From Longimicrobiales bacterium (GTDB lineage Bacteria; Gemmatimonadota; Gemmatimonadetes; Longimicrobiales; Gaopeijiaceae), in contig CAXXCM010000001.1 of NCBI GenBank assembly GCA_963662845.2, positions 275,241 through 339,240 of the forward strand: DNA of 64,000 nucleotides. Reading direction: 5' to 3'. The notes beneath the pieces were generated by a model that had not been told where the DNA came from, searched no databases, and worked only from the letters and a program-made list of their open reading frames with translations. Shown here piece by piece: positions 23,615 to 46,800 of this stretch; the first letter of the stretch is position 1, and the number at the start of each line of letters is the position of its first letter. Position numbers and translations under genes: made by a program.

Positions 23615-23754
23615 CTGGGGGTCGTGGGCGTGCTTCGGTCCGTGCGGACCGCGCTCCGATCTGTTGCGATCCAAAGGGGAATGTCGGCATCTTGGAGTCC
23701 GCTACCGCTTGGCCAATGGCCAGCGTCTCCCCGTCACGCCTTGGACCGTTCGCA

Positions 23755-24936
23755 ATGCTGATTCAACGACTGGACGCCCGAGGGCTGCTCTCGTTCGGGC
23801 CACAGGGAATCGACCTGGGTCTGCGACCGCTGAACGTCCTGATTGGACCCAACGGGTCCGGCAAGTCCAATCTGTTGGAGAGCATCACGCTCCTGAAGGC
23901 AGCTCCACGGGATCTTGCCGGAGCCATTTTGCGGGGCGGCAACGCGGTGCGCGACTGGATTTGGAGTGGGGAGCCGGCGGTGGCCGGGGCGGCCATCGAG
24001 GCCATACTGGAGAACCCGGAAGGCCGCCAGAACCTGCGTTTCGATCTGAGGTTCACCGAGCGCGGGCAGCGCTTCGAGGTTACCGAGGAGCGAATAACGA
24101 ATGAGCATGCATACGAAGGGTTCTCCAGTCCCTACATCTACTACGAGAACGCGGCCGGCCGGGCGACGCTCAACTATCGCGACACCTCCGGCTCGGATTC
24201 GCAGCGCCATCTGCGGATTGAGAGCGTCGACAGGGAGCAATCGATTCTGGCCCAGCGTAGGGATCCGGACCACTATCCCGTTCTGACCTACCTTGCGGAA
24301 ACGCTGGACCGCATCCGCTTCTACCGAGAATGGGAGTTCGGACGGGACACCGTGCTGCGAACGCCGCAGAAGACCGACCGGCCCAACGACTTTCTCCGCG
24401 AGGACGGGAAGAACCTGGGGCTCGTATTGAACAATCTGCGCCGGTCACCGAAGGTCAAGAGCCGGCTCCTAGAGGCCCTGCGCAGGTTGTATGACGGGAT
24501 CACGGACTTCGAAGTCATCATCGAGGGCAATACCGTTCAGGTGTGCCTCTATGAAGGGGAGATCGAGGTCCCCGCGACGCGGCTGTCCGATGGAACTTTG
24601 CGCTACCTCTGTCTCCTCGCCATCCTGTGTCACCCGAATCCGCCTCCCCTGGTGTGCATCGAGGAACCGGAGCTGGGTCTCCACCCGGACGTGCTGCCGA
24701 CACTGACCGAATTGCTCCTGGAAGCTTCCGAGCGAGGCCAGTTGATCGTGACGACACATTCGGAAGTGCTGGTCGACGCGCTGACACATCAGCCAGAGTG
24801 TGTCGTGATCTGTGAGAAGCACCAGGGGCAGACGAGGATGCGCCGCCTGAAGGCGGATGAACTGGCGGAATGGCTCAAGCGCCATGGTCTCGGAGAGCTC
24901 TGGCTCAGTGGCGAGATCGGGGGCAACCGCTGGTGA
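23755..24936 (+). CDS. ABC-type (AAA_15/AAA_21-like) ATPase, candidate defence ATPase
   Basis: C-terminal part of track ORF 22396..24936. Walker A GPNGSGKSN, signature-like LSDGTLRYL, Walker B LVCIEEPELGLHP and H-loop VTTHS. The start is uncertain: ATG 23755 (MLIQRLDARGLLSF, typical of the family), ATG 23716 or TTG 23692. Confidence 0.8.
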   Translation: MLIQRLDARGLLSFGPQGIDLGLRPLNVLIGPNGSGKSNLLESITLLKAAPRDLAGAILRGGNAVRDWIWSGEPAVAGAAIEAILENPEGRQNLRFDLRFTERGQRFEVTEERITNEHAYEGFSSPYIYYENAAGRATLNYRDTSGSDSQRHLRIESVDREQSILAQRRDPDHYPVLTYLAETLDRIRFYREWEFGRDTVLRTPQKTDRPNDFLREDGKNLGLVLNNLRRSPKVKSRLLEALRRLYDGITDFEVIIEGNTVQVCLYEGEIEVPATRLSDGTLRYLCLLAILCHPNPPPLVCIEEPELGLHPDVLPTLTELLLEASERGQLIVTTHSEVLVDALTHQPECVVICEKHQGQTRMRRLKADELAEWLKRHGLGELWLSGEIGGNRW

Positions 24937-25541
24937 CGGTCAAGATCTATGTGGAGGGTGGTGGAGACGCCAACGCCCTCAGGCGAGACTGTCGGCTTGG
25001 GTTTCGGGAATTCTTCCTGAAAGCCGGTTTGGAGGGTCGGATGCCACGAATCGTCGCGTGTGGCTCACGGGACAGCGCCTTTGACCGTTTCCGTACGGCA
25101 GTACGGGGCAAGAGCGGCAACCAGTTCGTCATGCTCCTGGTGGACAGTGAAGAAGGCGTCGCCGAGTCCGATGGGCCGTGGCAGCATGTGCGAAGGCGGG
25201 ACAACTGGACCCAGCCCGCAAGCGCGGCGGACGACAGCCTGTGCCTGATGGTCCAGTGCATGGAAGCTTGGTTCGTCGCGGACCGCGAGTGCCTGAGGGC
25301 CTACTGTGGCCCGGGCTTCAACGCGGGAAGACTGCCGGGTACCCGTGAGGTCGAGAGAATCGCGAAGGCCGACCTCTACGCGGCGTTGGATGGCGCGACG
25401 CGGAACTGCAACAAGGGGACGTACACGAGGAACAAGGGGCGGCACTCGTTCCGCATTCTGGCTACGGTCGATCCTGACAAGGTGGCTGCGGCGTCTCCAC
25501 ACGCTAGGCGGCTGTTGCAGACGCTGCGCGAGGTGTCGTAA
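24933..25541 (+). CDS. TOPRIM-like / DUF4276-like protein partnered with the ATPase
   Basis: Track ORF 24870..25541 trimmed to GTG 24933, overlapping the ATPase stop (GTGA). It has VKIYVEGGGD (TOPRIM-like Glu), MLLVDSEE (acidic DxD-like) and CMEAWFVADRE. My memory of DUF4276 matches this pattern, but it needs HMM confirmation. Confidence 0.65.
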   Translation: MTVKIYVEGGGDANALRRDCRLGFREFFLKAGLEGRMPRIVACGSRDSAFDRFRTAVRGKSGNQFVMLLVDSEEGVAESDGPWQHVRRRDNWTQPASAADDSLCLMVQCMEAWFVADRECLRAYCGPGFNAGRLPGTREVERIAKADLYAALDGATRNCNKGTYTRNKGRHSFRILATVDPDKVAAASPHARRLLQTLREVS

Positions 25542-25568
25542 ACAATCGGATCCCGCTACCGCCCGGCC

Positions 25569-30554: not shown

Positions 30555-32720
30555 GTGAAAGCCTGGGTGGCAGCAACTCTGGCCACCGGCTGCGGCGACG
30601 AGGCCACCGAACCAGCGTCATCGTTGCCGACTTCCATCACGGTTCTACCAGCCACGGCCACATTGCAGTCGTTGGGGGAGACCGTCCAGCTGGTCGCGAC
30701 CGTCCAGGACCAGAACGGGCAGATGATGTCGGGTGCCACGGTCACGTGGGCAAGCGGCGATCCGTTGGTGGCGACCGTGGACGCATCGGGCTTGGTGACG
30801 GCGGTAGCGAACGGGACAGCGAGCGTGACGGGCACTGCCGGTTCGGCGTCGGGCTCCGCGACGGTGACCGTCGATCAGGTCCTCGCTGCGGTGGTGGTCG
30901 AGCCTGCGAACGACACGCTGCTGGCGTTCGGCGACACGCTGCGGCTGTCGGCCGAGGCGGTCGACGCGAACGGGCATGCGGTCGCGGGTGCGAAGTTCGC
31001 GTGGGCGAGCGAGGACGAGCTGGTGGCGACGGTGGATGCTAGGGGTTTGGTGACGGCGGTGGGCAGCGGCTCAGCGACGGTGAGGGCCACTGCGGGCACG
31101 GTTGCCGGAACCGCCACGGTGACGGTCGACCAGGTTCCTGTGGGCGTTGTCGTTGAGCCGGACTCGGTGGCCTTCGACGCGATTGGCGACACGGCGCGAG
31201 TGGCCGCGACGTTCGTCGATGCCAACACCTACGAGATCGCGGCACCCGAAGTGGAGTGGGCAAGTGCGGACGCGTCGGTGGCTACCGTGGATGCGTCAGG
31301 GCTGGTGACGGCAGTGGGGAACGGAACGGCGACCGTTACGGTGGAGGCGGGCTCCGTGTCTGGAACATCGGCGGTCACAGTTGAGCAGGCAATCGCCACC
31401 GTGTCGGTGACGCCCGCGACAGCTGAACTCCGCAGACTGCGTGAAACGGTACAGTTGACCGCCGAGGTCCGCGACCGGCGTGGGAGGACCATTGCCTCTG
31501 CCACCGTGGAGTGGAGAACCGAGGACCAACGCATAGCCACCGTGGACTCCACGGGATTGGTAACGGCGAGGAGTAGCGGGTCGACGACGATCACGGCGAC
31601 CGCAGGCTCCGCCTCGGGAAGTGCCACTGTGCTGGTTGCCGACCTGCGACGTGTCACGGTGGCTTCCGTGCCGACCAACGGAGGAACATCGCTCGGCTCG
31701 GGCAGGTGGTTCGTGTTCCCGGGACAGGCCGCCACGACCACTCTGGCGGCGGAAGCGAACGCGGGATACGACTTTGATCGTTGGACTACGGAGAATGGCA
31801 GGACCCTGTCCACCGACCCGGTCCACGTCATGGACGTCTTGGACGATCATGCGGTCAAGGCCCGTTTCTCCGTGAATCAGGAGCGAGGGAAGTGGACACC
31901 CGGCGGCACCTACACCTGGTACGAATTCCCGCCGGGTAACTACGGGGTCGACAGCATATCGTGGACTTTCCTGCCCGTGACCGATCCGCCTCCGAGCCTT
32001 CGCAACAAGGGGCTGTTGCACTACTACGCGATGAACTTCGGTGTAACCAATTCCGTCAATGGGTTCGGACGCGGCTACGCAGGCCTGCAGTCCAACGCCT
32101 ACATGCACGGAAGGCAGTGGGGCAAGGCCATCAACTTCTCGATCTGGCGGTCGAACGGCGGGCGAACCGATGGCCAACTGGAGCAGGACAACTTCGAGTG
32201 CTTCTGCTATCGGATCATGTACGAGTTCCCGTGGGTGGAGGGACGGGCGTACCGGTTCGTCCTCAAGCAGGGACCTAGCGGAACCGATTCCGACGGCAAG
32301 TGGTGGGGACTCTGGGTGACGGATCTCACCACTGATCGCCAGACCTTCGTCGGAGAACAGCGAGTGCCGACCACCATCCAGGGCCGCCCTTCCAGAACCC
32401 TTTCCCCCAGGGGCATTCACGTGTTCGGCGAAGACCTGTACTGGTGGCGGGCGTTACCGGGGACCGAGCCGTACGTCTGCAGCGATTTCGACCCTTCCTC
32501 ACTGGCAATTCTGGACGTAAGGGCCGGCTCACGAGAGCCGACGGGTGTCACGAACATCACGAACAGTGGCAACACATTCAAATATCCCAATGGGTACGTG
32601 ACGGTGGGTTGTCACGTGACGATTACGGAAGGTGGAAACGGCAACGTCCAGCACAATCTCGGATTCTGGCCGGAGCCACCAGTCAACGTCACCGGAGGGT
32701 CATTTCCGAGGCGAGAATGA
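30555..32720 (+). CDS. Lipoprotein: 4x Big_2 (Ig-like) domains, InlB-B-repeat-like segment and a lectin-like (DUF3472-like?) C-terminal domain
   Basis: Track ORF of 721 aa with a GTG start and lipobox LATGC. It has four repeats of the Big_2 pattern (TLQSLGETVQL.A.V.D.NG......V.WAS.D..VATVD..GLVTAV.NGTA.VTA). The C-terminal part has YAGLQSN...AINFSIW. The C-terminal family assignments are tentative. Confidence 0.8.
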   Translation: MKAWVAATLATGCGDEATEPASSLPTSITVLPATATLQSLGETVQLVATVQDQNGQMMSGATVTWASGDPLVATVDASGLVTAVANGTASVTGTAGSASGSATVTVDQVLAAVVVEPANDTLLAFGDTLRLSAEAVDANGHAVAGAKFAWASEDELVATVDARGLVTAVGSGSATVRATAGTVAGTATVTVDQVPVGVVVEPDSVAFDAIGDTARVAATFVDANTYEIAAPEVEWASADASVATVDASGLVTAVGNGTATVTVEAGSVSGTSAVTVEQAIATVSVTPATAELRRLRETVQLTAEVRDRRGRTIASATVEWRTEDQRIATVDSTGLVTARSSGSTTITATAGSASGSATVLVADLRRVTVASVPTNGGTSLGSGRWFVFPGQAATTTLAAEANAGYDFDRWTTENGRTLSTDPVHVMDVLDDHAVKARFSVNQERGKWTPGGTYTWYEFPPGNYGVDSISWTFLPVTDPPPSLRNKGLLHYYAMNFGVTNSVNGFGRGYAGLQSNAYMHGRQWGKAINFSIWRSNGGRTDGQLEQDNFECFCYRIMYEFPWVEGRAYRFVLKQGPSGTDSDGKWWGLWVTDLTTDRQTFVGEQRVPTTIQGRPSRTLSPRGIHVFGEDLYWWRALPGTEPYVCSDFDPSSLAILDVRAGSREPTGVTNITNSGNTFKYPNGYVTVGCHVTITEGGNGNVQHNLGFWPEPPVNVTGGSFPRRE
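30636..31060 (+). repeat. Shared N-terminal Big_2 cassette, copy A (approximate limits)
   Basis: Nucleotide-level near-identity by eye to 38752-39190 and 44018-44460 over two Big_2 domains, and to 32918-33125 over the first domain. Confidence 0.8.
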
Positions 32721-34642
32721 GCGCTGAGCGACACGAGTCGTCCCTTCTCAACAGGAGCCATCCACGCATGACAGACCGGCGTCCACAGACCCCCTTCCGT
32801 CTGTTCACTTCGGCAGCCGCCTTCACCGTGATCGCGCTCCCGGTCGCAGCCTGGGCTCTCGTATCCGCGTGCGGCGACGGAGCCGTGGCACCGCCGACCC
32901 CCGATCCGGCGCGGCCAACGACGATCACGATTTCGCCCGCCTCGGCGACGCTCCAGTCGCTGGGCGAGACCGTCCGGCTGGCCGCGACCGTGCAGGACCA
33001 GAACGGGCAGACGATGTCGGATGCCGCAGTCGCGTGGGCGAGCGGCGATCCGTCGGTGGCGACCGTGGACGCCTCGGGCCTGGTGACGGCGGTGGCGAAT
33101 GGGTCCACGACCGTGACGGCAAGCACCGGCGCGATTTCCGCGACCGTCGGAGTGACTGTGGAGCAGCGGCCAGCGAGCGTCGACGTTGGCCCCGCCACCA
33201 GCACGCTCGCATCTGTTGGCGATACGGTTCGGCTGTCCGCCCAAGTCCTGGACGCCAAGCTGAACCCGGTGGGGGCAGTGGAGGGCGTGACGTGGTCCTC
33301 GGACGACCCGTCGGTGGCAACCGTGGACGCGGACGGCCTGGTCACCGCAGTGGAAAACGGTTCGGCGAGCGTGACGGCCTCGTTCGAGGACTTCAGCGCG
33401 ACGGCCACCGTTGCTGTCGCTGACGTAGAGCGATTGCTGGGAGACAGGCCGGGCATCGCGGCCGGCATGGTCTGGCTTGGCACGGACAATCAGTCGAGAC
33501 CGTACGCCGACTGGCCTCAGCCGATGAAAAAGAAGCTCGTCCTGGCCGTCAGCCAGTTGGTCGGCGAGGGGACGGGGCTGCCCGATGTGATGGACAATCA
33601 GGCCGCCGATTTCCTCGCAGACGATGCGCGCCCCGTCACGGTGTTTTCCGAAAAGGACGCCGAAGACATCTACGTGGCGAATGTCGCGCAGTCGCTGATT
33701 CTCGAGGCAACAGAAACGCTGCCTTGGTCACTCGATGACCTTTCGGACAGCGAGATGGAGCTGCTCCTCGGGTGGCGCGGTTTCTTCCTTGGCTACAGTT
33801 CCCCCGAGTCTCAACACCGGTCTGTCCCGCCCGAGGTCACTGGCTACTTCCACCGCCACGGTGCATCCCCCGCGCCTCCTGAACTCGTCCGCGAGTTTGT
33901 TCTGGACAATGGCCTCGTCGGCAATAGCCGTTACGAGACGATCATCAGCGTCATCGAGTGGGCCCGGCAACATCTGACGCACTTCTGTGGCCGCAGCACC
34001 GCCCGAAACTACGAGGATCACTGGGGTTACCGGGGGATTCCGCCATTGGCGCGCATGTTCGTAGGGACGACCCGTTTCGGGAACCCCGACTGCCCATCAA
34101 GCAAAACCGCCCGTTTTACGGCGGGGTGCGGCGGCACGACCTGGTTCTTCATACATGTGCTGAGAGCGGTCAACATCCCCGTCGAGGACGTCGACATGCC
34201 CGATTCGGGGCACGCTACCCCGGGCTTCCCCTCCGAGGGATTGTACTTGTCCCACGGAGACGACCCGTATGGCAAGGGAGGCTGGTATTCGCCGCCGTTC
34301 CCCGAGCCGTATCCCTCGACCGAGATTCCGATCTCGGAGGCGACGTTCAACGACTGGTTCAGCCCATCCAACTCCCGCCGGGAGAACGACGAAAACGTTG
34401 GGAGGAGAGAAACCGAGCTAATCGTCGAATACCTGCCGCAGTACCTGCTGCATATCCGATGTGGGGATCGTGCCAGGGGGGTGTCCAAGGAATCCAGCGA
34501 CGTATACAGGCCCGGAAGCATGGGGATAGGCCGATACTGGACCATCGCCGAACTCGACGCCATGCGCTTCTGGGAGCGGATGGATGCCAAGATCGAGCGG
34601 TACGGGGGTTGTCCGATACCGCACCCGACGCGCGGGGGATGA
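32717..34642 (+). CDS. Lipoprotein: 2x Big_2 domains plus a C-terminal domain with transglutaminase-like Cys-His-Asp motif
   Basis: Track ORF 32444..34642 trimmed to ATG 32717, which makes an ATGA overlap with the upstream stop. Lipobox LVSAC. The C-terminal part has FTAGCGGTTWFFIHVLRAVNIPV ... SGHATPGF ... SHGDDPYG. Confidence 0.75.
   Translation: MSAERHESSLLNRSHPRMTDRRPQTPFRLFTSAAAFTVIALPVAAWALVSACGDGAVAPPTPDPARPTTITISPASATLQSLGETVRLAATVQDQNGQTMSDAAVAWASGDPSVATVDASGLVTAVANGSTTVTASTGAISATVGVTVEQRPASVDVGPATSTLASVGDTVRLSAQVLDAKLNPVGAVEGVTWSSDDPSVATVDADGLVTAVENGSASVTASFEDFSATATVAVADVERLLGDRPGIAAGMVWLGTDNQSRPYADWPQPMKKKLVLAVSQLVGEGTGLPDVMDNQAADFLADDARPVTVFSEKDAEDIYVANVAQSLILEATETLPWSLDDLSDSEMELLLGWRGFFLGYSSPESQHRSVPPEVTGYFHRHGASPAPPELVREFVLDNGLVGNSRYETIISVIEWARQHLTHFCGRSTARNYEDHWGYRGIPPLARMFVGTTRFGNPDCPSSKTARFTAGCGGTTWFFIHVLRAVNIPVEDVDMPDSGHATPGFPSEGLYLSHGDDPYGKGGWYSPPFPEPYPSTEIPISEATFNDWFSPSNSRRENDENVGRRETELIVEYLPQYLLHIRCGDRARGVSKESSDVYRPGSMGIGRYWTIAELDAMRFWERMDAKIERYGGCPIPHPTRGG
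32918..33125 (+). repeat. Shared N-terminal Big_2 cassette, copy B (first domain only, approximate limits)
   Basis: Near-identical by eye to the first Big_2 domain of copies A, C and D (…ctccagtcgctgggcgagaccgtccggctggccgcgaccgtgcaggaccagaacgggcagacgatgtcgg…). Confidence 0.8.
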
Positions 34643-34757
34643 GATGTCCCGTGCTTCCCTCGCGACCAGGTCGATGGATCGGCGGGACCAGCCGCTGGTC
34701 AGGGTCTTGAAGTGCTACACAGTCGCGATATGCCGAACCTTCAACTTGGAGGCTGCA

Positions 34758-37700
34758 ATGCCAACGATCTCAAGAAACCCTGCTGCCTCAACTAATGCCA
34801 CCATCGAGGGAAGTAAACGGTTTTCGGGTCTGGATTGGTTGAAGTTTGTCAGTCGCGGGTGGTCGTCGGCACGGACTCTTCCGGCTCTCGCAATGATCGC
34901 GCCCCTTGCGATGGCGACTTGCAGCCGAGAGCCAGCATGGGAGTTCTCCATTGAATCGGCCCTCGAGATCGTCGATTCGCTTGAGAGCAAGGATCCACGA
35001 GTGACGCTCTCCGAGAATCCAGACGAGTGCCGGTCGGTACCCGACTCCGGGTCTGCCACCGTGGCAACGGGAGTTTCCCAATACGTTGCCAGCTATCTGA
35101 CTCGGGAGGACCTCGGCTTCAAGTGTGCGGCCCGCCTTGTGACCCACGCGACCGAGAGATCGGGAACCATCAGCATCGACGAGGCGACGGAGCTGGTGGC
35201 TTGGCACAATGGTAACGACCCTGCGGGCGGCACGGTGTTTGCACGGCTCTTCTATGAACAGCGGGCCGACGACACCGCCAACTTGGAGACGTTGTGGCCC
35301 GTCGCGGTAGGCCTCGAAGGCCTCCGGAGCGTTCTGGAATCGGCCGACACCACCACCGACATCGTCATTACGGTGTCCGACATCTCGCTGTGGAGCGCGC
35401 CTGATCCGAGCTCCCTCACCGACTCCGCCCAAACCAGCGAACACGATCCGTACTTCACCAACCTCGGCGTGAGCGGCGATGACGGACCGGTGCTTCCCGC
35501 GACCCTTGTGTCGGCACCGGGCTGGATGCTGAGGTCGAGTCCCTATCCCATCGGAGACGGCGCATCCTTCCTTTTTGGTCGCCATGAACCTCCCACGGCT
35601 ACGACGATGGCGACGGAGGCCACAGTCCCAACTGCGGGAGCAGGTATAGACTACTTGCCCGTGTCGTCGCCGTTCTTGGCAAGCGACTTCCAGCCCATTG
35701 CCCTAGTGAACGACAGCGCACTGCTTAAACGCGGCACGGACTTTGCTAGGGAGCTAGGTGCCGCAGTACAAGCAAGGCCTGTTACCTATGCTTCAACATT
35801 GAACAAGTCCATCCTCATGAGTGTCATTCAGACGCTTCTCCCATTCATCCTTCTCGGGCTGGCAATTCGCGCAACAGCCGACGCGGCACGTGGTCGCCGC
35901 AATCGTATCCAAGGTGAATTGAAGACGATCCAGGGTTTCCCACCTAGAGACGATCCACATGGGCCCAAGGAGAGCTTGTTCAACTACTCCAAGAGCCATG
36001 AGTCCATACACCTGTGGGCCGCACGAATCGAGGAGACGGCAGGGAAGTTGACCGGGGCAGAGTCCTCGCTCGCGCAGACGATTGACGACGCTACCGAGGC
36101 GAGACGCCCAGATACCCTCCTTGCGAACCTGAAAGAACTTGAGCGTCTCGTCATTCCTCCCAGCGTCGAGCCACCGACCACCGATGGCCGTTTGCCAGAC
36201 CCTGTGCGGTTGCCTTGGGCACCAAAGTGGATCAGGAGGCCGTTGGCATGGATCTTGGTGACGTTTGGCCGCTCGCCCCAAAATGCATCATCCGATGGTG
36301 ACCCTAACGGTATCACTGAACAACAGGAGGGAATACTTAGTTCAATCAACGAAGGACGAGGGCGGATCGAAGACTGGGAACAGGCCGCGCAAAAACTCAG
36401 TGTCCTAGTTGCTAGCCAGTCAGTCAACACCCAATTGCGTACACTGACGATGCTGGCTAGCCGTCTACACAAATCACTGGCGAAAACAGATGAATTGACC
36501 GAAAAGGTGGCGACCTGGTGGATTGAGGCCAAGGGTCCGCTTGGGCAGTTTGTGCGAGGTTATGCCGCTGGCGAGATGGCCGAGTCGGAATTAGAAGACA
36601 TCCGAAGGAAATCAATCGAAGTGAATAAGAAACTTGACAAAGTGCAATCTTTGTTGCCTTCCGATTTGGACGAAGATGTGAATAGAGTCTTTAAGGCGAT
36701 CGATGCACTAGACAAGATAGTGCAAACAGCGACCCAATACTTGAACGACCTTAGTCAATGGGCGCACATTTACGACGGACTCGGCAATCTGGAAGAGGCA
36801 ATACGACGCCTGAATAGGGCAGGCACGTTCGGAGAAGCGGCAGGGTTGAAAGAAAAGATCGAAACCACTTGCAAAATGCTACGCAATTCAATGGACGCGG
36901 GTCGTGGTGAGGCTGACGATCTTGTGACAGTTAGGAATGCAGTGGGAGTGATCCGGGGTGCGATCCCGAACCACAACGAAAGGCAACATCTCGAGCAGCT
37001 TGGTGGGAAGATCGAGGCAGCCATGCAAGCGATCAAGGAGGCCGATGGACGGATCGATGCAGAGTTCAAGAAGGCTTGCCGACAGGCTTTCCTGAAGATG
37101 CGCAAGCAGAAGCTCGAAGACGCGATGAGGAAGAAGGTAGATCGGATCCTGCAGGGAACGCCGCAGAGACTCGGCCAGATCGTCATTCGGAAGGGTTCGG
37201 TGATACCTGTGCTGGTTGGCGTGGTGGCGACAACGATGACGGCAGTTGCTGGTTGGCAGCTGCTTGGTGCCGGGAAACAGGTGCCGGCACTGATAGTCCT
37301 GGCTGCTACATTTGCGGCACTGTTGTTGGTTGGACGGTGCGTAGCGTTCTCGGGAGGGAAATGGATCGCTAAATCAAAAGGGTTGCCGGAGCACGGATCG
37401 CGAATCCAGACTAGGCGACGTAGCATGCAACTGTGGTTTGTTGGAGGTTGTGGTCTTGTGACATACGGGGCACTCAAGTCCTTCGAGCGAGCGGGTTCGG
37501 CGGCAGGATTGGATGGAATAGGTTTTCATGGTACAATCGAGATGTTCTCGATGTTTGCTACAGTATTGGCCGCTTGTAGTGTGCGCGATGGTGTACAATG
37601 GGAGCCGGAAGGGCGTAACACGACGCTGTGTTTGGAGTGCGATGATGAGACCGAGCGGGATAGGTGGAAGGCATGTGGTGGTGATGCTTGTGAGCTATGC

Positions 37701-38063
37701 GGTTGTGGCAACCGCTGCGTCAGATGCCTGGAGAACGAGGCTATGGAAGGCGAGCCACCCAGCAAAGGTAATGGACGGACATTGTGGAGTTTCTTGGCCC
37801 TAGTGTATATGCTAGCTGTTGCGCTATTTGTTTGGTGTGGATGGCTAGCTAGCGTTGGCGTTGGGAGTGGAACGGGCTGGTCTGAGTTCGAGTTGGAGGT
37901 GATCAAACTGGTGGCTCCAGGAGTGTTGCTGGTGCCGCTGGGATTTGTGGTTGACGTGTTGTTGCGGGGTCAGGGCACAACTGTCAATACGAAGCGGAGG
38001 CCCGGACCACCTGAGCTGGAGGCCGGGCAAAGCGATGCTGGGTCAAGGAGTAGGGGATCGTGA
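34758..38063 (+). CDS. Orphan large membrane protein: lipoprotein-like signal, extracytoplasmic domain, long charged helical region, multiple TM helices and an eight-Cys cluster
   Basis: Track ORF 34584..38063. The preferred start is ATG 34758, with ggagg 7 nt upstream (MPTISRN...LAMIAPLAMATC). An alternative ATG at 34644 lies 1 nt after the upstream stop. It is visibly AT-richer than its surroundings. TM segments include SILMSVIQTLLPFILLGLAI and VIPVLVGVVATTMTAVAGW. I recognise no family. Confidence 0.65.
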   Translation: MPTISRNPAASTNATIEGSKRFSGLDWLKFVSRGWSSARTLPALAMIAPLAMATCSREPAWEFSIESALEIVDSLESKDPRVTLSENPDECRSVPDSGSATVATGVSQYVASYLTREDLGFKCAARLVTHATERSGTISIDEATELVAWHNGNDPAGGTVFARLFYEQRADDTANLETLWPVAVGLEGLRSVLESADTTTDIVITVSDISLWSAPDPSSLTDSAQTSEHDPYFTNLGVSGDDGPVLPATLVSAPGWMLRSSPYPIGDGASFLFGRHEPPTATTMATEATVPTAGAGIDYLPVSSPFLASDFQPIALVNDSALLKRGTDFARELGAAVQARPVTYASTLNKSILMSVIQTLLPFILLGLAIRATADAARGRRNRIQGELKTIQGFPPRDDPHGPKESLFNYSKSHESIHLWAARIEETAGKLTGAESSLAQTIDDATEARRPDTLLANLKELERLVIPPSVEPPTTDGRLPDPVRLPWAPKWIRRPLAWILVTFGRSPQNASSDGDPNGITEQQEGILSSINEGRGRIEDWEQAAQKLSVLVASQSVNTQLRTLTMLASRLHKSLAKTDELTEKVATWWIEAKGPLGQFVRGYAAGEMAESELEDIRRKSIEVNKKLDKVQSLLPSDLDEDVNRVFKAIDALDKIVQTATQYLNDLSQWAHIYDGLGNLEEAIRRLNRAGTFGEAAGLKEKIETTCKMLRNSMDAGRGEADDLVTVRNAVGVIRGAIPNHNERQHLEQLGGKIEAAMQAIKEADGRIDAEFKKACRQAFLKMRKQKLEDAMRKKVDRILQGTPQRLGQIVIRKGSVIPVLVGVVATTMTAVAGWQLLGAGKQVPALIVLAATFAALLLVGRCVAFSGGKWIAKSKGLPEHGSRIQTRRRSMQLWFVGGCGLVTYGALKSFERAGSAAGLDGIGFHGTIEMFSMFATVLAACSVRDGVQWEPEGRNTTLCLECDDETERDRWKACGGDACELCGCGNRCVRCLENEAMEGEPPSKGNGRTLWSFLALVYMLAVALFVWCGWLASVGVGSGTGWSEFELEVIKLVAPGVLLVPLGFVVDVLLRGQGTTVNTKRRPGPPELEAGQSDAGSRSRGS

Positions 38064-38644
38064 TGAACATCTGGCAAGGGCTTGGAGCAATCGTGGTGAT
38101 CGTCGTTGTGACTTTGCTTCCCGGGAGCGCGTGGGAGCAGGCGGAGGGGGCTACGGAACCGGCGGAAGGGCCGGAACCCGACGTTGGCGATGCCGTGGCC
38201 GTTGAGGACTCGGTGACGCGCACCGATGTGCTGACTTGGGATGATCGAGGCAAGGACAGGCGGGGTGTCGTGGTCACCCTGACCATTCCACGTGGGAGGA
38301 GCCTCGTCGCAATCGAACCCATTGAAGCCGATTCAGGGTTGGGAGGTGAGGTGCTTGAGTTCGTCCGCATCAACTCTACCCTAGTGCTCGATCCTTCAAA
38401 GCTGCGTCGAATCCGTTTCAGGGCAGTGGATGGGGGTGAATCGAAGGTCACCATATCGGTGCGGCTCAAGCGGTGTGCGCCACTGCGGCTCGCGGTCCGG
38501 GAGTATGTGGGCGACATCGGTATTCGCCGGGTGCTGGAGCAGGACCATGACTTTCCGAACTGCTGTCCCACCTCACTGGCGGCTGCTCCCACCGCTGAGG
38601 ATGCACAGGCCACACGATCTGATCGCGATAGGTGGGGCTCATGA
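38063..38644 (+). CDS. Hypothetical signal-anchored protein coupled to the orphan membrane protein
   Basis: Track ORF 38060..38644. ATG 38063 overlaps the upstream TGA (TGATG), and GTG 38060 is also possible. It has an N-terminal hydrophobic helix (GLGAIVVIVVVTLLPGSAW). Its stop overlaps the next gene's start (ATGA). Confidence 0.55.
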   Translation: MNIWQGLGAIVVIVVVTLLPGSAWEQAEGATEPAEGPEPDVGDAVAVEDSVTRTDVLTWDDRGKDRRGVVVTLTIPRGRSLVAIEPIEADSGLGGEVLEFVRINSTLVLDPSKLRRIRFRAVDGGESKVTISVRLKRCAPLRLAVREYVGDIGIRRVLEQDHDFPNCCPTSLAAAPTAEDAQATRSDRDRWGS

Positions 38645-41600
38645 GTCGCAGCGGAACCATCGGGCTGGTGAAGGCCTGGTTGATGGTGGCATTGGCTACC
38701 GGCTGCGGCGACGGCGCGGTCGAGCCGGTTCCGCCCCCAGCTCCAGTGCCAACCACGATCACTATCTCCCCCGCTTCGGCGACGCTTCAGTCGCTGGGGG
38801 AGACCGTCCGGCTGGCCGCGACCGTACAGGACCAGAACGGGCAGACGATGTCGGGTGCCACGGTCGCATGGGCGAGCAGCGACCCGTCGGTGGCGACCGT
38901 GGACGCATCGGGCTTGGTGACGGCGGTGGCAAATGGAAACGCGATGGTCACGGCCACTGCCGGTTCGGCATCGGGCTCAGCTGCGGTGACCGTCGATCAG
39001 GTGCTGGCTGCGGTGGTGGTCGAGCCCGCGACGGACACGCTGCTCGCGTTCGGCGACACGCTCCGCCTTTCGGCCGAGGCCGTCGACGCCAACGGGCACG
39101 CGGTCGCCAGCGCGGAAATTGCGTGGGCGTCGGGCGACACTCTCGTGGCCGTCGTGGACCAGCAGGGCCTCGTGACGGGGGTCTCCCCAGGCGAGGCGGA
39201 GGTGACTGCCAGCTCGGCGGAAGTGACGGGACAAGCGCACCTCGCGGTGCTGGCTCCGGCACCGACAACGCTCGCGATCAGCCCGGACACGGTCGGGTTC
39301 GACGCCCTTGGGCAGACCGCACGGCTCGTGGCGGAGGTGCGCGACCAGGCCGGACGCGCAATGGAAGGCGTGACGGTCTCGTGGTCGAGCGGCGACACGA
39401 CGGTCGCACTGGTGGATTCGACGGGTCTGGTGACGGCTGCGGGCACGGGGACGACGACGATCGCCGCAAAGGCGGACTCGGCATCCGGCGATGCTGCGGT
39501 CACGGTGATGCAGTTGGCGGGCTCGGTTGTGCTGTCGCCGTCAACGGACACGATCTCTCCCGGCGACACCCTGCGGCTGGGAGCGGATGCGTTCGACGGG
39601 AACGGTCATGTGATTGAGACGACGGAGTTCGACTGGTCGTCGAGCGATGTCTCCGTGGTGCGGGTCGACGCCTACGGGCTGGCGACAGGCGTGGCCGAGG
39701 GGCGGGCGACGGTCACGGCGGTCGCAGGAGATGTGCATGGGACGGCCGAGATCACGGTCGAAAACCCCGACCGAGCGGCGCTGGTGGCGTTGTACAACGC
39801 AACCGATGGTCCGAACTGGGTGAACAACGAGAATTGGCTGACGGACGCGCCGCTGGGGGAGTGGTACGGGGTGGACACGGACGCTTCCGGTCGTGTGGTG
39901 GGACTTAACCTGGGGGGCCGGTGGGACGAGGTGGCGAGACAGTGGATCCCGCACGGCTTACTTGGCCCGATTCCGCCGGAACTGGGCGATCTGGCTCGTC
40001 TGGAGCGGTTGGATCTCTCCAACAACGGCTTGTGGGGCGGGATCCCACCGGTAATCGGCGGCTTGGCGGATCTCCAAGGTCTGTATGTCCGAGGGAATGA
40101 CTTGACAGGCACAATCCCGGCGAGTCTAGGCGACTTGACGAGTCTGAAGTGGTTGGATGCCCGCTACAACGCGCTGACGGGTGGGATCCCGCCAGAACTG
40201 GAAGGCCTGTCGAATCTGCGGATCCTTCGTCTCGGCTTCAACGATCTGACGGGTGCGATCCCGCCGAAACTGGGCAAGCTATCAAGTTTACAGGTACTGA
40301 ACCTTAGGTACAACAGACTAACCGGCGTGATCCCTTCGGAGCTGGGCAACTTGACTAACCTTATTGAGCTGCTCTTGGACACAAACACTCTAACGGGGCC
40401 GATACCGCGAATTCTGGGCAATCTGTCAAGTCTGCGGTGGCTCTTGCTATATGACAATCAGCTCTCCGGCGCGATTCCCCGGGAGCTTGAGAAGCTGAGC
40501 CATCTGGCGTTTCTGAGCCTCTGGGGGAACGACCTCTCCGGCACGATTCCGCCGTGGCTCGCCGATCTATCGAATCTGACCTACTTGGATCTTGGAGAAA
40601 ACCAGCTCTCGGGCCCGATTCCGCCGGAGCTGGGAAAGCTGAGCCATCTGACGTATCTGAGCCTCAGTTCGAACTCGCTAACGGGTACGCTGCCGCCGGA
40701 ACTCGGCAATCTCTCCAAACTGAATCGGCTTGTGATCGACGACAACGACATCTCGGGCCCAGTGCCACGAACCTTCCTGAACTTGCCGCTACAAAGGTTC
40801 GGCTGGTATTGCGGTGACGCGAAACATGACGTGTGCGTGCCCGGCACATCCGAGTTCGTGGATTGGCTGGAGGGAATTGAATGGCTCGGGCGTTTCTGCA
40901 ACGCATCGGATGAGGCCACGCTGTCCAACCTGTTCGACTGGACTCACGGGCGCAAGTGGACCGAGTCCGGCGGGTGGCTGGGCGGCCCTGTGCTGGAGGA
41001 GTGGCACGGTGTGCGGACCGATTCGCTGGGCCGGGTAACGGCCCTGCATCTGAGCGACAACGGCCTCGAGGGCGGCTTGGCAAGTGATCTCGCCGAGCTC
41101 GATCAGCTGACCACCCTTCGGATCGATGGCAACCCGCTGGCCGGACGGCTGCCGGTTGCCTTTACCCAGCTTGCGCTTAGCGATTTCCACTACCATGGCA
41201 CCGAACTGTGCACGCCCACGGACAAGGCGTTCCAGAGCTGGCTGGCGGGAATCGAGTCGCACGAAGGCACGGGCGTCGAATGCGCGCCGCTGACGGATCG
41301 CGACGTGTTGGCGGACCTGTACAGGAGCAATGGGGGGCGAGACTGGAAGAACAACCGGAACTGGCTCGGCGATGGCCCCCTCCGTCGCTGGCAAGGAGTC
41401 GAAGTCAATGACAAGGGCCGCGTCGTAGGCTTGGACCTCTCCGAGAACGACATTTCGGGCGCGATCCCGCCGGGGCTGGGCGACTTGTCGGATTTGGGAT
41501 ACCTAGACCTTTCGCACAACGAACTGGCGGGTCCGATTCCGCCGGAACTGGGCGATCTGGCCAATCTGCGGATACTCGATCTCGCCTTCAACGGTCTGAC

Positions 41601-43857: not shown

Positions 43858-46800
43858 TGGCAATGATCGCCGGCGGTGCCGCGAACGTACGAGGCGGACG
43901 GTCCTCGCAACCGTCCAAGGGAAACGCGCCACTACTTGCCGCGTTGCTGGCCACGTGCCTGACCACCGGCTGTGGCGACGGCGCGGTCGAGCCGATCCCG
44001 CCCCCAGCTCCGGTGCCAACCACGATCACCATCTCCCCCACCTCGGCGACGCTCCAGTCGCTGGGGGAGACCGTCCGCCTGGCCGCAACCGTGCAGGACC
44101 AGAACGGGCAGACGATGTCGGGTGCCACGGTCGCGTGGGCGAGCGGCGACCCGTCGGTGGCGACCGTGGACCCTTCGGGTCTGGTAACGGCGGTGGCGAA
44201 TGGAACCGCCAGCGTGACGGCCACAGCCGGTTCGGCGTCGGCATCCGCAGCGGTGACCGTCGATCAGGTGCTGGCTGCGGTGGTGGTCGAGCCCGCGACC
44301 GACACGCTGCTGGCCTTCGGCGACACGCTCTGGCTCTCCGCCGAAGCGGTCGACGCTAACGGGCAAGCGGTCGCGGGTGCCGAGTTCGCGTGGGCATCAG
44401 GCGACACGCTGGTGGCGACCGTGGACCAGCACGGTCTCGTGACGGGGATCTCCCCAGGCGAGGTGGAGGTGACTGCCAGTTCGGCGGACCTGACGGGACG
44501 GGCGCAGCTCGCGGTGCTGGCCCCCGCACCGACGGCGGTGGCGATCAGCCCCGACACGGTGGGGTTTGACGCCCTTGGGCAGACCGCGCGGCTTGTGGCG
44601 GAGGTCCGAGATCAAGCCGGACGCGCGATGGAGGATGTGGCCGTGTCCTGGTCGAGCGGCAACCCGATGGTCGCACTGGTGGACTCAACGGGGCTGGTGA
44701 CGGCGGCAGGCACCGGAACGACGACGATTGCCGCGACAGCGGACTCGGCCTCCGGCGAAGCCACGGTCACGGTGACGCAGTCGGCGGGCTCGGTCGTGCT
44801 GTCGCCGGCAACGGACACGATCGCTCCCGGCGACACCCTGCGGATGGGAGCGGAGGCGTTCGACGGGAACGGTCATGTGATCGACGCGACGGAGTTTGAC
44901 TGGTCGTCGAGTGATGTCTCCGTGGTGCGGGTCGACGCCTACGGGCTGGCGACAGGCGTGGCCGAGGGGCGGGCGACGGTCACGGCGGTCGCGGGAGACG
45001 TGCATGGGACCGCCGAGATCACGGTCGAATACCCCGACCGTGCGGCTCTGGTGGCACTGTACAACGCCACCGATGGACCAAACTGGGTGAACAGCGAGAA
45101 CTGGCTGACCGACGCGCCGCTGGGGGAGTGGTACGGGGTGGATACGAACGCTTCCGACCGGGTAACCAGCCTTTACTTCAGGGGCAGATGGGACGGCTGG
45201 CGGGGACAGGTATTGGTGCCCCACGGTCTATCCGGGCCCATTCCGCCAGCCCTTGGCGACCTTACCGAACTGCGACGGGTCGATTTCTCCTTGAACCGAC
45301 TGTCGGGCCCGATTCCGTCCGAACTGACCAGTCTCATCAACTTGGAGCGTCTCGCACTCGGTGTCAATGATCTGTCGGGCCCGATTCCGCCGGAGCTGGG
45401 CAACCTCGTGAACCTCCGTTATCTCTCACTCGGCGATAATCGCCTGTCGGGCCCGATTCCCTCAGAGCTGGGCAACTTGGTGAAGCTCGAACACCTCGAC
45501 CTCGGCAATAACGGCCTGTCGGGCCCGATTCCGCCCGGACTGGGCAACCTCGTCAACTTGTACAATCTCGTGCTCTTTGGCAACAGCCTGTCTGGAACCA
45601 TTCCGTCGGAGCTGGGCAATCTCGTCATGCTGGGGTCCCTCTACCTCAACGTCAACGATCTGTCCGGTCCGATTCCGCCGGAGCTGGGCAACCTTCGCCA
45701 ACTGAACACACTGTGGCTTCACTACAACGAGTTTTCTGGTCCGTTCCCACAAAGCCTGTTGACCCTGCCGCTGGAGAGGTTGGCTTGGAACTGCGGCGTC
45801 CATGGGCTTTGCTTGCCCGGCACCTCCGAGTTTGTCGGATGGTTGGAGGGGATCGCCAAGGACGGTCCTTTCTGCAACGCGTCAGACCAAGCGACGTTGA
45901 CGAGCCTCTTCGACCTGATGGACGGGGAACGATGGAACGAATCCACCGGCTGGCTTGGCGGTCCCGCACTCGAGGAGTGGCACGGGGTAGAGACCGACTC
46001 CCTGGGCTTGGTGACCGTCCTTGACTTGAGCGACAACGGACTCTCGGGCGGCCTTCCGGGAGGCATCGCCAACCTCGGCCAGCTTACCCGGCTGCGCATC
46101 GAGGACAACAGCCTCACGGGACGCCTGCCACTCGCTCTGACCCACCTCTCCCTTGACGAGCTTCATTACGAAGGAACGGAGCTGTGCGAGCCAGCGGATG
46201 ACGCGTTCCGGGCTTGGCTGGACGGCATCAAGTCGCACCGGGGGACGGGCAAGCAATGCCCCCCAATTGCCGGCGACCGCGATGTGTTGGAGGCGCTGTA
46301 CGAGGCCACGGGCGGCGCCAACTGGCGCAATGACCACAACTGGCTTAGCGAGGCGCCGCTGGGACACTGGCACGGGGTGCAGACGGACGATCGGGGTCGG
46401 GTAGTCCGGTTGGACCTGGGGTGGAACGGACTGTCCGGTGTGATTCCGCCGGAGCTGGGCGGGCTCGACGAACTGCGATCCCTCGCGCTCTACGGCAACG
46501 ATCTGCAGGGGCCGATCCCGCCTGAAATCGGCGAGCTCAAAAGCTTGGTGTCACTACATCTGTGGGGAAACGGCTTGAGTGGCGCAGTCCCGTCGGAACT
46601 TGGCAACCTCGCGAGCCTAAGGGAGCTGAGGGCTGATGTCAATCGCTTGTCCGGTCCGATACCATCGCGACTCGGCAGACTCACTAGACTATCCTCGCTG
46701 AGGTTTGGTTACAACGACCTATCAGGCCCCATTCCCTCCGCCCTAGGCAATCTCTCCAACCTGGTTCGATTGGAACTCGCCGAGAACGGCCTTTCCGGTC

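What the first reader, a model, noticed from the sequence alone, without database searches (positions are those of the whole stretch)
23692..25541. Overlapping two-gene ABC-type ATPase plus TOPRIM-like (DUF4276-like) module: a PARIS/OLD/Gabija-like candidate defence system
Seen in sequence: a protein of about 390 aa has Walker A GPNGSGKSN, signature-like LSDGTLRYL, Walker B IEEPELGLHP and H-loop TTHS. A 202-aa protein follows, whose GTG start overlaps the ATPase stop (GTGA). It carries KIYVEGGGD, LLVDSEE and CMEAWFVAD. Established knowledge: OLD nucleases and Gabija GajA fuse an ABC ATPase to a TOPRIM nuclease, and PARIS splits them into AriA (AAA_15) and AriB (DUF4435 TOPRIM). Inference: this pair has the same logic with a different, DUF4276-like partner that as far as I know has not been experimentally characterised. 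It is wedged between unrelated housekeeping-type genes, as solitary defence modules often are.
Basis: partly seen in the sequence, partly recalled or inferred. Interest (0 to 1): 0.7.

Follow-up and report, generated by a model that had tools for sequence, protein, structure and literature searches.

The report
Solitary HEC-01 ATPase–nuclease defence candidate
This is an intact two-gene cassette, an ABC-type ATPase translationally coupled to a small DUF4276 protein with a probable metal-dependent nuclease site, that already has a name as the candidate anti-phage system "HEC-01", so it is a real but fairly ordinary new copy of a catalogued, mechanistically unsolved system.

Summary
The ABC ATPase runs from ATG 23755 to 24936 (393 aa), not from 23692. 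It is followed by a 202-aa DUF4276 protein (GTG 24933-25541) through a GTGA stop/start overlap, and every quoted motif is present.

The pair is not an uncharacterised novelty. Both proteins match the PADLOC models HEC-01A and HEC-01B over their full length (4e-169 and 8e-77). HEC-01 was described in 2024 as an ABC ATPase plus TOPRIM-like candidate. It has been challenged with phages twice, once with no protection and once with protection. Its relatives Mad3/Mad4 are required in the MADS defence system.

- All 80 related genome loci keep the A-to-B order, and 68 of 80 keep the same GTGA overlap.
- dN/dS is about 0.11-0.12 for both genes.
- The cassette is lower in GC than its flanks in 66 of 69 loci, and its tree disagrees with taxonomy.
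- In 16 of 80 loci it sits between brxC and pglX of type-1 BREX, next to other defence cargo. Elsewhere it is solitary among housekeeping genes, as here.

My fold searches did not independently confirm a TOPRIM fold. The only suggestive match was an RloB-like protein.

The most likely function is a sensor ATPase that restrains and then releases a nuclease during infection.

The parts
23664..23693 (+). Promoter-like element TTGCGA-N18-CATCTT, 61 nt upstream of the ATPase ATG.
   Evidence: The element is conserved upstream of the cassette in Gemmatimonadota copies that sit in different genomic contexts (window, L084, L001, L002, L003). It is absent from BREX-embedded copies, where A follows brxC directly. 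The generic sigma-70 scan did not report it because it scores below that scan's threshold. Its function is inferred, not shown.
23755..24936 (+). HEC-01A: OLD/AAA_21-type ABC ATPase, 393 aa. Walker A is G31-N39 (23845-23871, with K37). The signature is LSDGT 277-281 (24583-24597). Walker B is CIEEPE 301-306 (24655-24672). The H-loop is H335 (24757-24759). The conserved C-terminus ends ...GGNRW.
   Evidence: Pfam AAA_21 3.6e-38 and AAA_15 3.1e-15. PADLOC HEC-01A model PDLC04177 4.4e-169, covering 1-393 of 393. All motifs are at least 95% conserved across 74 A+B pairs. The best PDB sequence match is an OLD-family nuclease, 6p74, in the N-terminal region only.
24933..24936 (+). GTGA overlap: the GTG start of B overlaps the TGA stop of A, consistent with translational coupling.
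   Evidence: Read directly from the sequence. The same GTG/TGA 4-nt overlap occurs in 68 of 80 related loci, and 77 of 80 overlap by 4 or 7 nt.
24933..25541 (+). HEC-01B: DUF4276 protein, 202 aa, a putative TOPRIM-like metal-dependent nuclease. Conserved acidic residues are E8 (24954-24956), D71-S72-E73 (25143-25151), E111 (25263-25265) and D117 (25281-25283).
   Evidence: Pfam DUF4276 2.5e-17, covering 7-199 against model positions 1-192 of 192. PADLOC HEC-01B model PDLC04201 8e-77. E8, D71, E73, E111 and D117 are invariant in 39 homologues and at least 90% conserved in 87 representatives of 50%-identity clusters. The AF2 model has pLDDT 91.9 with a beta-alpha-beta-alpha-beta-alpha-beta core, and the acidic residues sit at the C-terminal ends of beta1, beta3 and beta4.

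Best explanation
The locus is a functional, horizontally acquired two-gene conflict module of the PADLOC HEC-01 family.

What is shown:
- A 393-aa OLD/AAA_21-type ABC ATPase (A) carries intact Walker A, signature, Walker B and H-loop motifs.
- A is translationally coupled through a conserved GTGA overlap to a 202-aa DUF4276 protein (B).
- B has an alpha/beta core that presents five conserved acidic residues: E8, D71, E73, E111 and D117.
- The two genes always travel together and are under purifying selection.
- They move between phyla and repeatedly occupy the cargo slot between brxC and pglX of type-1 BREX systems.

What is inferred by analogy with PARIS (AriA/AriB), OLD/Gabija, AbiL and Mad3/Mad4:
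- A oligomerises and holds B inactive.
- A phage-derived cue, possibly an anti-restriction protein given the BREX link, triggers an ATP-dependent change in A.
- That change frees or activates B.
- B is a Mg2+-dependent nuclease that cuts nucleic acid. Whether the substrate is tRNA, as for AriB, or DNA, as for OLD and probably MADS, is unknown.
- Cleavage stops phage replication, probably at the cost of the infected cell.

In this sponge-associated Gemmatimonadota genome the cassette is solitary. It appears to carry its own promoter-like element and has no BREX or restriction-modification partner nearby.
For: Family assignment: full-length matches to HEC-01A (4.4e-169) and HEC-01B (8e-77), and to AAA_21 and DUF4276.

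Obligate pairing: A lies directly upstream of B in 80 of 80 loci from at least ten phyla. The GTGA overlap is present in 68 of 80. The 185-aa downstream gene has no homologue in any of those loci, so the module is two genes.

Selection: dN/dS is 0.11 for A and 0.12 for B against L084. ATPase motifs and B's acidic residues are conserved.

Mobility: cassette GC is below the flanks in 66 of 69 loci, with a median difference of -6 points; in the window it is 0.61 against about 0.68. The A+B tree disagrees with taxonomy. Some genomes carry several copies.

Defence association: 16 of 80 loci have brxA-brxB-brxC-[A-B]-pglX. The same slot also carries ThsB-TIR plus 8xMP, STAND NTPases and a second AAA_21/DUF4276 pair. 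The syntenic orthologous site in L084 additionally holds an HTH_3+RES toxin-antitoxin pair.

Literature: HEC-01B is reported to share the OLD TOPRIM metal site. DUF4276 and RloB have been assigned to the Toprim superfamily, and Mad4 is a DUF4276 homologue. One HEC-01 protected E. coli B against at least one of T7, T5 and T4. OLD-type ABC plus TOPRIM pairs have been proposed as BREX backup effectors. mad3 and mad4 deletions reduce MADS defence.
Against: No experiment exists for this locus or its close clade.

The first published HEC-01 test showed no protection against the phages used.

My own fold searches did not retrieve any TOPRIM structure from the PDB, either with the full model or with the 1-128 core. 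The best E-values were 0.26 and 0.048, all to generic Rossmann-like folds. Profile searches against PDB sequences found nothing.

The only suggestive links are a BFVD RloB-like hit (probability 0.96, E 0.015, TM 0.45) and RloB Pfam hits at E 0.025 in 2 of 87 family members.

The motif after beta3 is DxE rather than the canonical DxD.

In this window there is no neighbouring defence gene and no transcription evidence.

The trigger, the substrate and the stoichiometry are all inferred.
Confidence: 0.6

Rival explanations
1. The cassette is a selfish addiction module of the toxin-antitoxin type. B would be a toxic nuclease and A its ATP-dependent antidote. The cassette would persist and spread because losing it kills the cell, with no net anti-phage role.
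For: It occurs as a solitary two-gene cassette among housekeeping genes in about 64 of 80 loci, with no recognisable mobility genes. Its GC is low and its phylogeny disagrees with taxonomy. Some genomes carry several copies. It shares a chromosomal slot with a RES/Xre toxin-antitoxin pair in L084. Coupling is tight and the gene order is fixed. One HEC-01 test found no protection.
Against: It is repeatedly placed inside BREX operons beside other immune cargo. A different HEC-01 gave protection. Mad3/Mad4 are required for MADS defence. The two roles are not mutually exclusive, since many abortive-infection systems behave as toxin-antitoxin pairs.
Confidence: 0.15
2. The pair is an accessory effector that only works together with a methylation-based system such as BREX or MADS. 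The solitary copy in this window would then be an orphan that is inactive, or that depends on a partner encoded elsewhere in the genome.
For: 16 of 80 loci lie inside BREX, directly after brxC with no promoter gap. Mad3/Mad4 act within the eight-gene MADS system, and the lethality of deleting mad5 is relieved by deleting mad3. The BREX survey interprets such pairs as backup effectors.
Against: Most copies, about 80%, are solitary yet intact. BREX-embedded and solitary copies are interspersed in the tree. The window copy and its orthologue are under purifying selection. The Gemmatimonadota clade has its own conserved upstream promoter-like element. PARIS, which is similarly embedded in Salmonella BREX, works autonomously.
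Confidence: 0.12
3. The pair has a housekeeping role in DNA repair or chromosome maintenance, as a RecF/SbcC/SMC-like ATPase with a small partner, and has nothing to do with genetic conflict.
For: A gives weak SMC_N, RecF and SbcC N-terminal matches. The immediate neighbours in the window are housekeeping genes.
Against: Those matches cover only the P-loop region. The distribution is patchy and horizontally transferred. Copy number varies between genomes. The cassette associates with BREX and other defence cargo. It is assigned to dedicated defence-candidate models.
Confidence: 0.03

Closest known systems
PADLOC candidate system HEC-01 (HEC-01A ABC ATPase + HEC-01B TOPRIM-like protein; Payne et al. 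2024, bioRxiv 10.1101/2024.01.29.577857)
   Same: Both proteins match the family's own HMMs over their full length (4.4e-169 and 8e-77). The genes are adjacent and in the same order. The domain content is the same, AAA_21 plus DUF4276.
   Different: HEC-01 was defined from copies embedded in Hma systems. This copy is solitary in a sponge-associated Gemmatimonadota chromosome. In my sample the clade's recurrent immune host is type-1 BREX, in the brxC-pglX slot. The experimental record for the family is mixed, and none of it concerns this clade.
PARIS (AriA ABC ATPase + AriB DUF4435 TOPRIM nuclease)
   Same: It is a split two-gene design with an AAA_15/21 ABC ATPase followed by a small nuclease with an acidic active site. 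It is also found embedded between brxC and pglX, in Salmonella BREX. It is placed in the same AAA15/21 defence ATPase radiation.
   Different: B matches no DUF4435 or AriB model. A's AriA hit is only the generic AAA_21 profile, at 2.5e-37 against 4.4e-169 for HEC-01A. The trigger (Ocr) and target (tRNA-Lys) are known for PARIS only.
Mad3/Mad4 of the methylation-associated defence system MADS
   Same: An AAA-family ATPase is paired with a DUF4276 homologue. Deleting either one weakens defence.
   Different: A scores 107.9 bits on NCBIfam MADS3 against a cut-off of 420. B does not hit any mad4 model. None of the other mad genes, including the DNA methyltransferase and mad6-8, is nearby.
AbiL (AbiLi ATPase + AbiLii RloB-like) and RloB proteins linked to type I restriction-modification
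   Same: It is a two-gene ABC ATPase plus small TOPRIM-superfamily partner. The best structural neighbour of my B model is an RloB-like phage protein. A hits AbiLi at 1.6e-25.
   Different: B has no significant RloB Pfam match; only 2 of 87 family members reach E 0.025. The HEC-01 models fit far better than the AbiL models.
OLD nucleases and Gabija GajA
   Same: They have an OLD-type ABC ATPase; the best PDB sequence hit for A is the OLD-family entry 6p74. The logic of an ATPase controlling a metal-dependent nuclease is the same.
   Different: In OLD and GajA the ATPase and TOPRIM are fused in one polypeptide, and Gabija adds the GajB helicase. Here the two are separate genes and no helicase is present. 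There is no Toprim_Old match.

Membership tests
PADLOC HEC-01 | The protein matches an HEC-01A ATPase model. | tested here: met
   PDLC04177 scores 4.4e-169 and 560.6 bits, covering 1-393 against model positions 3-393 of 393. It is the best of 134 hits.
PADLOC HEC-01 | An adjacent protein matches an HEC-01B model (DUF4276). | tested here: met
   PDLC04201 scores 8e-77, covering 1-200 against model positions 1-198 of 202. Pfam DUF4276 scores 2.5e-17. The two genes overlap by 4 nt.
PADLOC HEC-01 | The system confers anti-phage activity. | not testable with these tools
   The literature is mixed: no protection in Payne et al., and protection against at least one of T7, T5 and T4 for a cold-seep representative. 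There are no data for this locus.
Toprim superfamily (for protein B) | An alpha/beta core with four parallel strands and alternating helices. | tested here: inconclusive
   The AF2 model (pLDDT 91.9) gives strands at 2-7, 39-42, 64-71 and 103-106, alternating with helices. Strand order could not be checked because no coordinates were available.
Toprim superfamily (for protein B) | A conserved Glu after beta1 and a DxD-type motif after beta3. | tested here: met
   E8 is invariant directly after beta1. D71-S72-E73 lies directly after beta3; this is a DxE variant. E111 follows beta4.
Toprim superfamily (for protein B) | Significant structural or sequence similarity to established Toprim proteins. 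| tested here: inconclusive
   Foldseek against the PDB returned no Toprim hit, with best E-values of 0.26 for the full model and 0.048 for the core. HMM searches against PDB sequences found nothing. The top BFVD hit is an RloB-like protein with probability 0.96 and TM 0.45. RloB reaches E 0.025 in 2 of 87 members and DUF4093 reaches 0.24 in 1 of 87. Published structure-based assignments say Toprim.
PARIS | An AriB nuclease of the DUF4435 family. | tested here: not met
   B gives no DUF4435 or AriB hit at E up to 1 in Pfam or PADLOC.
Gabija / class 1-2 OLD | The ATPase is fused to a Toprim_Old domain, and Gabija also has a GajB UvrD-like helicase. | tested here: not met
   A is 393 aa with no Toprim_Old match. 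The neighbours are a beta-lactamase-fold protein and a 185-aa protein with no Pfam hit, so there is no helicase.
MADS | Mad3 at equivalog level, plus the mandatory mad6-8 genes and a DNA methyltransferase in the operon. | tested here: not met
   NCBIfam MADS3 scores 107.9 bits against a cut-off of 420. The only methyltransferase nearby is a small-molecule UbiE/ArsM-type enzyme two genes upstream.
BREX-embedded OLD-ABC/TOPRIM backup effector | The pair is located inside a BREX operon. | tested here: not met
   No BREX genes lie near the pair in the window. The feature is met in 16 of 80 related loci, between brxC and pglX.

The most novel reading that the evidence does not exclude
The most novel reading not excluded is as follows. 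This HEC-01 clade would be an autonomous, promoter-carrying cargo cassette that shuttles between the brxC-pglX slot of BREX and solitary chromosomal sites across phyla. It is especially common in sponge-symbiont lineages. It would work as a stand-alone sentinel for phage anti-restriction factors, using a DUF4276 nuclease whose fold and DxE active site form a distinct, biochemically unexplored branch. Its substrate and activation mechanism would differ from those of AriB and OLD.
Probability: 0.3. Interest if true: 0.55.

Novelty: new member of a known kind. Interest (0 to 1): 0.3.

Why it matters
For genome annotation, the pair should be labelled as an HEC-01 candidate defence system (ABC ATPase plus DUF4276), not as a new type.

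The family itself is large: 2453 clusters at 50% identity match the B profile. It is mobile and still lacks any biochemical characterisation. The nuclease activity, the substrate, the trigger and the A:B architecture are all unknown, and the two published phage tests disagree.

The comparative results here give concrete handles for experiments. These are the strict GTGA coupling, the recurrent brxC-pglX embedding beside other immune cargo, the interspersion of solitary and embedded copies in the tree, and the list of conserved catalytic residues. They also suggest that Ocr-like anti-BREX proteins are worth testing as triggers.

The value lies in the family, not in this particular window.

Tried and rejected
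1. Foldseek of the full B model against the PDB and of a 1-128 core model (pLDDT 77.7) against the PDB. Both returned only generic Rossmann-like folds, with no TOPRIM hit. The fold question therefore stays open, not refuted.

2. HMM profiles of 39 and of 87 family members against PDB sequences. There were no meaningful hits.

3. Bridging through divergent family members to other Pfam families. Only sporadic sub-threshold hits to RloB, DUF3226 and DUF4093 appeared.

4. A search for an empty site, using the upstream beta-lactamase-fold protein against metagenome contigs. Only two short orthologous contigs were found, and both end before the junction. Laying contigs from sponge metagenomes on the region showed no deletion variant.

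5. Transcription evidence. No clear RNA runs were found, and depth was flat across the region as in a DNA sample.

6. Flanking direct repeats as insertion scars. The window's 21-nt pair (23694-23714 and 25548-25568, 81% identical over 21 nt) falls within the range of shuffled controls, and loci in general show no excess. It was rejected as chance.

7. The generic sigma-70 and terminator scan found nothing. The promoter-like element reported here comes from cross-locus conservation instead.

8. The 185-aa downstream gene as a third component. It was rejected because it has no homologue in any of the 80 loci.

9. The Pfam label "AbiEii toxin" on AAA_21 was treated as a naming artefact, not as evidence of toxin function.
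Full report
**1. What is in the sequence**

The window is GC-rich, about 0.68 around the locus.

Translation of 24933-25541 gives a 202-aa protein with KIYVEGGGD, LLVDSEE and CMEAWFVAD.

The GTG start of the second gene (24933) overlaps the TGA stop of the first (24934-24936).

The only correction is the ATPase start. 23692 is the first in-frame TTG, but the protein begins at ATG 23755 and is 393 aa long. Three results support this:
- Homologues from 80 loci align from residue 1 of that form.
- Nucleotide conservation among Gemmatimonadota copies starts just before that ATG.
- An independent gene call on a 97-100% identical contig gives 393 aa.

**2. Family assignment**

In Pfam, protein A matches AAA_21 (3.6e-38, full-length model) and AAA_15. 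Protein B matches DUF4276 (2.5e-17, model positions 1-192 of 192).

In PADLOC-DB, both proteins match the dedicated models of the candidate system HEC-01 end to end. HEC-01A model PDLC04177 scores 4.4e-169 and HEC-01B model PDLC04201 scores 8e-77. B hits nothing except HEC-01B models.

In NCBIfam, the nearest named family for A is the MADS3 ATPase. It scores 107.9 bits against a cut-off of 420, so A is not a member.

HEC-01 was described by Payne et al. (bioRxiv 2024) as an ABC ATPase plus a TOPRIM-like protein found embedded in Hma systems. In their E. coli assays it gave no protection. A 2026 cold-seep study reports that a randomly chosen HEC-01 protected E. coli B against at least one of T7, T5 and T4.

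A 2025 NAR paper assigns DUF4276 and RloB to the Toprim superfamily and names Mad4 as a DUF4276 homologue. [quoted passage not shown] In the MADS preprint, deleting mad3 or mad4 reduces defence, and mad5 can only be deleted if mad2 or mad3 is also removed.

**3. Is it a real, selected, two-gene unit?**

The B family is large. There are more than 1290 homologues in the 90% identity clusters, nearly all about 201 aa and covering 99-100% of the query. At 50% identity, 2453 cluster representatives match the profile.

In 80 genome loci recovered with a B profile, A lies immediately upstream in every one. These loci come from Gemmatimonadota, Latescibacterota, Alpha- and Gammaproteobacteria, Binatia, Acidobacteriota, Planctomycetota, Nitrospirota, Desulfobulbaceae, Kiritimatiellia, Lentisphaerae and Chloroflexota.

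The identical GTG/TGA 4-nt overlap occurs in 68 of 80 loci, and 77 of 80 overlap by 4 or 7 nt.

Against the syntenic orthologue L084, dN/dS is 0.11 for A and 0.12 for B. In L084 the flanking genes are 80-92% identical to the window's, A is 90% identical and B is 80% identical.

Across 74 concatenated pairs, Walker A, the Q-loop region, the signature LSDGT, Walker B CIEEPE, the H-loop TTHS and the C-terminal ...GGNRW are at least 95% conserved. In B, the residues E8, D71, E73, E111 and D117 are invariant in 39 homologues and at least 90% conserved in 87 cluster representatives.

The downstream 185-aa gene has no homologue in any of the 80 loci, so the module has exactly two genes.

**4. Mobility**

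The cassette's GC is lower than its flanks in 66 of 69 loci with full flanks, with a median difference of -6 points. In the window it is 0.61 against about 0.68, and the B ORF's GC3 is 0.75 against about 0.9 in neighbouring genes.

A neighbour-joining tree of A+B disagrees with taxonomy. For example, Gemmatimonadota copies fall in three separate places, and a Nitrospira copy pairs with an Acidobacteriota copy. The tree has no bootstrap support values.

Several genomes hold two or three copies, and one locus has two pairs within 8 kb.

Flanking direct repeats are not a general feature. The window's own 21-nt flanking pair (81% identical) lies within the range of shuffled controls.

The Gemmatimonadota clade carries a conserved upstream element, TTGCGA-N18-CATCTT (23664-23693). 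It travels with the cassette into different genomic contexts. I read it as the cassette's own promoter, which is an inference.

**5. Genomic context**

I clustered 1137 neighbour ORFs from the 80 loci and annotated representatives of the recurrent clusters. In 16 of 80 loci the pair sits between brxC and pglX of a type-1 BREX operon, in the order brxA-brxB-brxC-[A-B]-pglX-pglZ. The median gap to brxC is 13 bp.

That same slot also carries other defence-type cargo:
- ThsB-TIR plus an 8xMP membrane protein
- STAND or NACHT-like NTPases
- an extra AAA_15 ATPase
- a second AAA_21/DUF4276 pair

In the remaining 64 loci the nearest two genes on each side are mostly metabolic or housekeeping genes. 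These include oxidoreductases, sulfatases, glycoside hydrolases, acyl-CoA enzymes and tRNA-synthetase subunits. Only scattered restriction-modification or HerA-type neighbours occur.

This is exactly the situation in the window. The gene order there is FG-GAP protein, DUF1232, MFS transporter, SAM-methyltransferase, beta-lactamase-fold protein, [A-B], a 185-aa protein of unknown function, Sortilin/BNR protein and an SDR.

In the orthologous site of L084, an HTH_3+RES toxin-antitoxin pair sits just upstream of the cassette. This inter-genic slot therefore collects accessory modules.

BREX-embedded and solitary copies are interspersed in the tree.

The link between OLD-type ABC ATPases with TOPRIM partners and BREX has already been published, with the pairs read as backup effectors. 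PARIS is embedded in Salmonella BREX. This context is supportive of a defence role, but it is not new in kind.

**6. The fold of B**

With a 39-sequence alignment, AF2 gives a confident model (pLDDT 91.9, pTM 0.89). It has a beta(2-7)-alpha-beta(39-42)-alpha-beta(64-71)-alpha-beta(103-106) core followed by a helical C-terminal half. E8, D71/E73 and E111 fall directly after beta1, beta3 and beta4, as expected for a TOPRIM-like metal site.

However, Foldseek against the PDB found no TOPRIM protein. This was true both for the full model (best E 0.26, TM below 0.3) and for a separately predicted 1-128 core (pLDDT 77.7; best hit a designed Rossmann fold at E 0.048).

Against BFVD, the top hit is an RloB-like phage protein, with probability 0.96, E 0.015 and TM 0.45.

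Profile searches against PDB sequences were empty. Among 87 diverse family members, only 2 touch RloB, at E 0.025.

I therefore rate the TOPRIM assignment as plausible. It is supported by the residue geometry and by published superpositions, but it was not independently demonstrated here.

**7. Mechanism**

What is shown is an intact ABC ATPase that is obligatorily and translationally coupled to a small protein with a conserved acidic cluster. The pair is mobile, under selection and associated with defence loci.

The rest is inferred from PARIS, OLD, AbiL and MADS. A would act as sensor and scaffold that restrains B. A phage cue would trigger ATP-dependent release or activation of B. Nucleic-acid cleavage would then halt infection.

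The BREX association makes anti-restriction proteins a reasonable candidate trigger, as the BREX survey also argued. The substrate is unknown. PARIS cuts tRNA. The MADS genetics, in which the lethality of deleting mad5 depends on mad3, would fit a DNA target.

**8. Origin of the window**

Near-identical sequence occurs in sponge metagenomes. The closest genome loci are Gemmatimonadota MAGs. No transcription evidence could be obtained.

**9. Verdict**

The locus is a new member of a known candidate family, HEC-01. Interest is modest for this locus. The family as a whole remains an open mechanistic problem.

Noticed in passing
window 9916-10946 (+), preceded by ORF 8738-9919: Four tandem paralogous small ORFs of 79, 73, 78 and 80 aa. 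Each has a signal- or leader-like N-terminus (MKK..R.ALSGA...LQVAEPT..AQ) and a Cys- and aromatic-rich C-terminal part. They lie directly after a protein of about 345-393 aa with no Pfam hit. Local GC drops to 0.59. This could be an array of RiPP or bacteriocin-like precursors.
   Followed up: partly
window 30555-48551 (+): Five consecutive large genes of 721, 732, 1159, 1741 and 1568 aa. Four of them begin with Big_2 Ig-like domains; two of those have long LRR arrays and a weak C-terminal Peptidase_M66-like stretch. The 1159-aa gene (34584-38063) has no Pfam hit, a GC3 of only 0.62, and the window's lowest GC together with strong GC skew at 36-38 kb. Eukaryote-like repeat proteins of this kind are typical of sponge symbionts.
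   Followed up: partly
L084 7853-8725: In the syntenic orthologous site of a related Gemmatimonadota genome, an HTH_3 (Xre-like) plus RES-domain toxin-antitoxin pair sits between the beta-lactamase-fold gene and the A-B cassette. The window lacks this pair. The slot therefore varies in its accessory content.
   Followed up: yes
L059 10593-11497; L012 10618-12234; L070 12928-15783; L065 7657-8802 and 10619-12435: The brxC-pglX gap of type-1 BREX operons that hosts the A-B pair also carries other cargo. This includes ThsB-TIR plus an 8xMP membrane protein, STAND/AAA_16/NACHT-like NTPases (one with DUF4062), an extra AAA_15 ATPase and a second AAA_21+DUF4276 pair. The gap behaves as a defence-cargo hotspot.
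   Followed up: partly
L017 and L032 (Defluviicoccus MAGs), within about 150 nt of each side of the cassette: Exact direct repeats of at least 20 nt with tRNA-like sequence (TAGCTCAGCCGGATAGAGCA) flank the cassette. This suggests either insertion at or between tRNA genes or an att-like duplication. L063 has a 19-of-20 flanking repeat. Other loci show no such repeats.
   Followed up: no
L085 986-2844 and 8814-10606: Two separate AAA_21+DUF4276 pairs lie within 8 kb of one chromosome, separated by glmU/glmS-type and acyl-CoA genes. The second pair is followed by a Phage_Mu_Gp27-domain gene. One Gammaproteobacteria genome (OY761822) has both a BREX-embedded copy (L069) and a solitary copy (L072).
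   Followed up: no
window 23700-25541 and the related loci: Near-identical sequence is found in sponge metagenomes, and more distantly in seawater and coral metagenomes. Several related loci appear to come from sponge-derived MAG sets, judging by isolate names such as RHO, IRC and APA bins (an inference from the names). This hints that the clade circulates among phylogenetically distant sponge symbionts.
   Followed up: partly
non-BREX loci among L001-L080: PheS-type domains are the immediate upstream neighbour in 2 loci, and PheT-type domains are the downstream neighbour in 2 loci. This suggests the cassette can sit inside the pheS-pheT gene pair. Whether these are the same loci was not resolved.
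   Followed up: no
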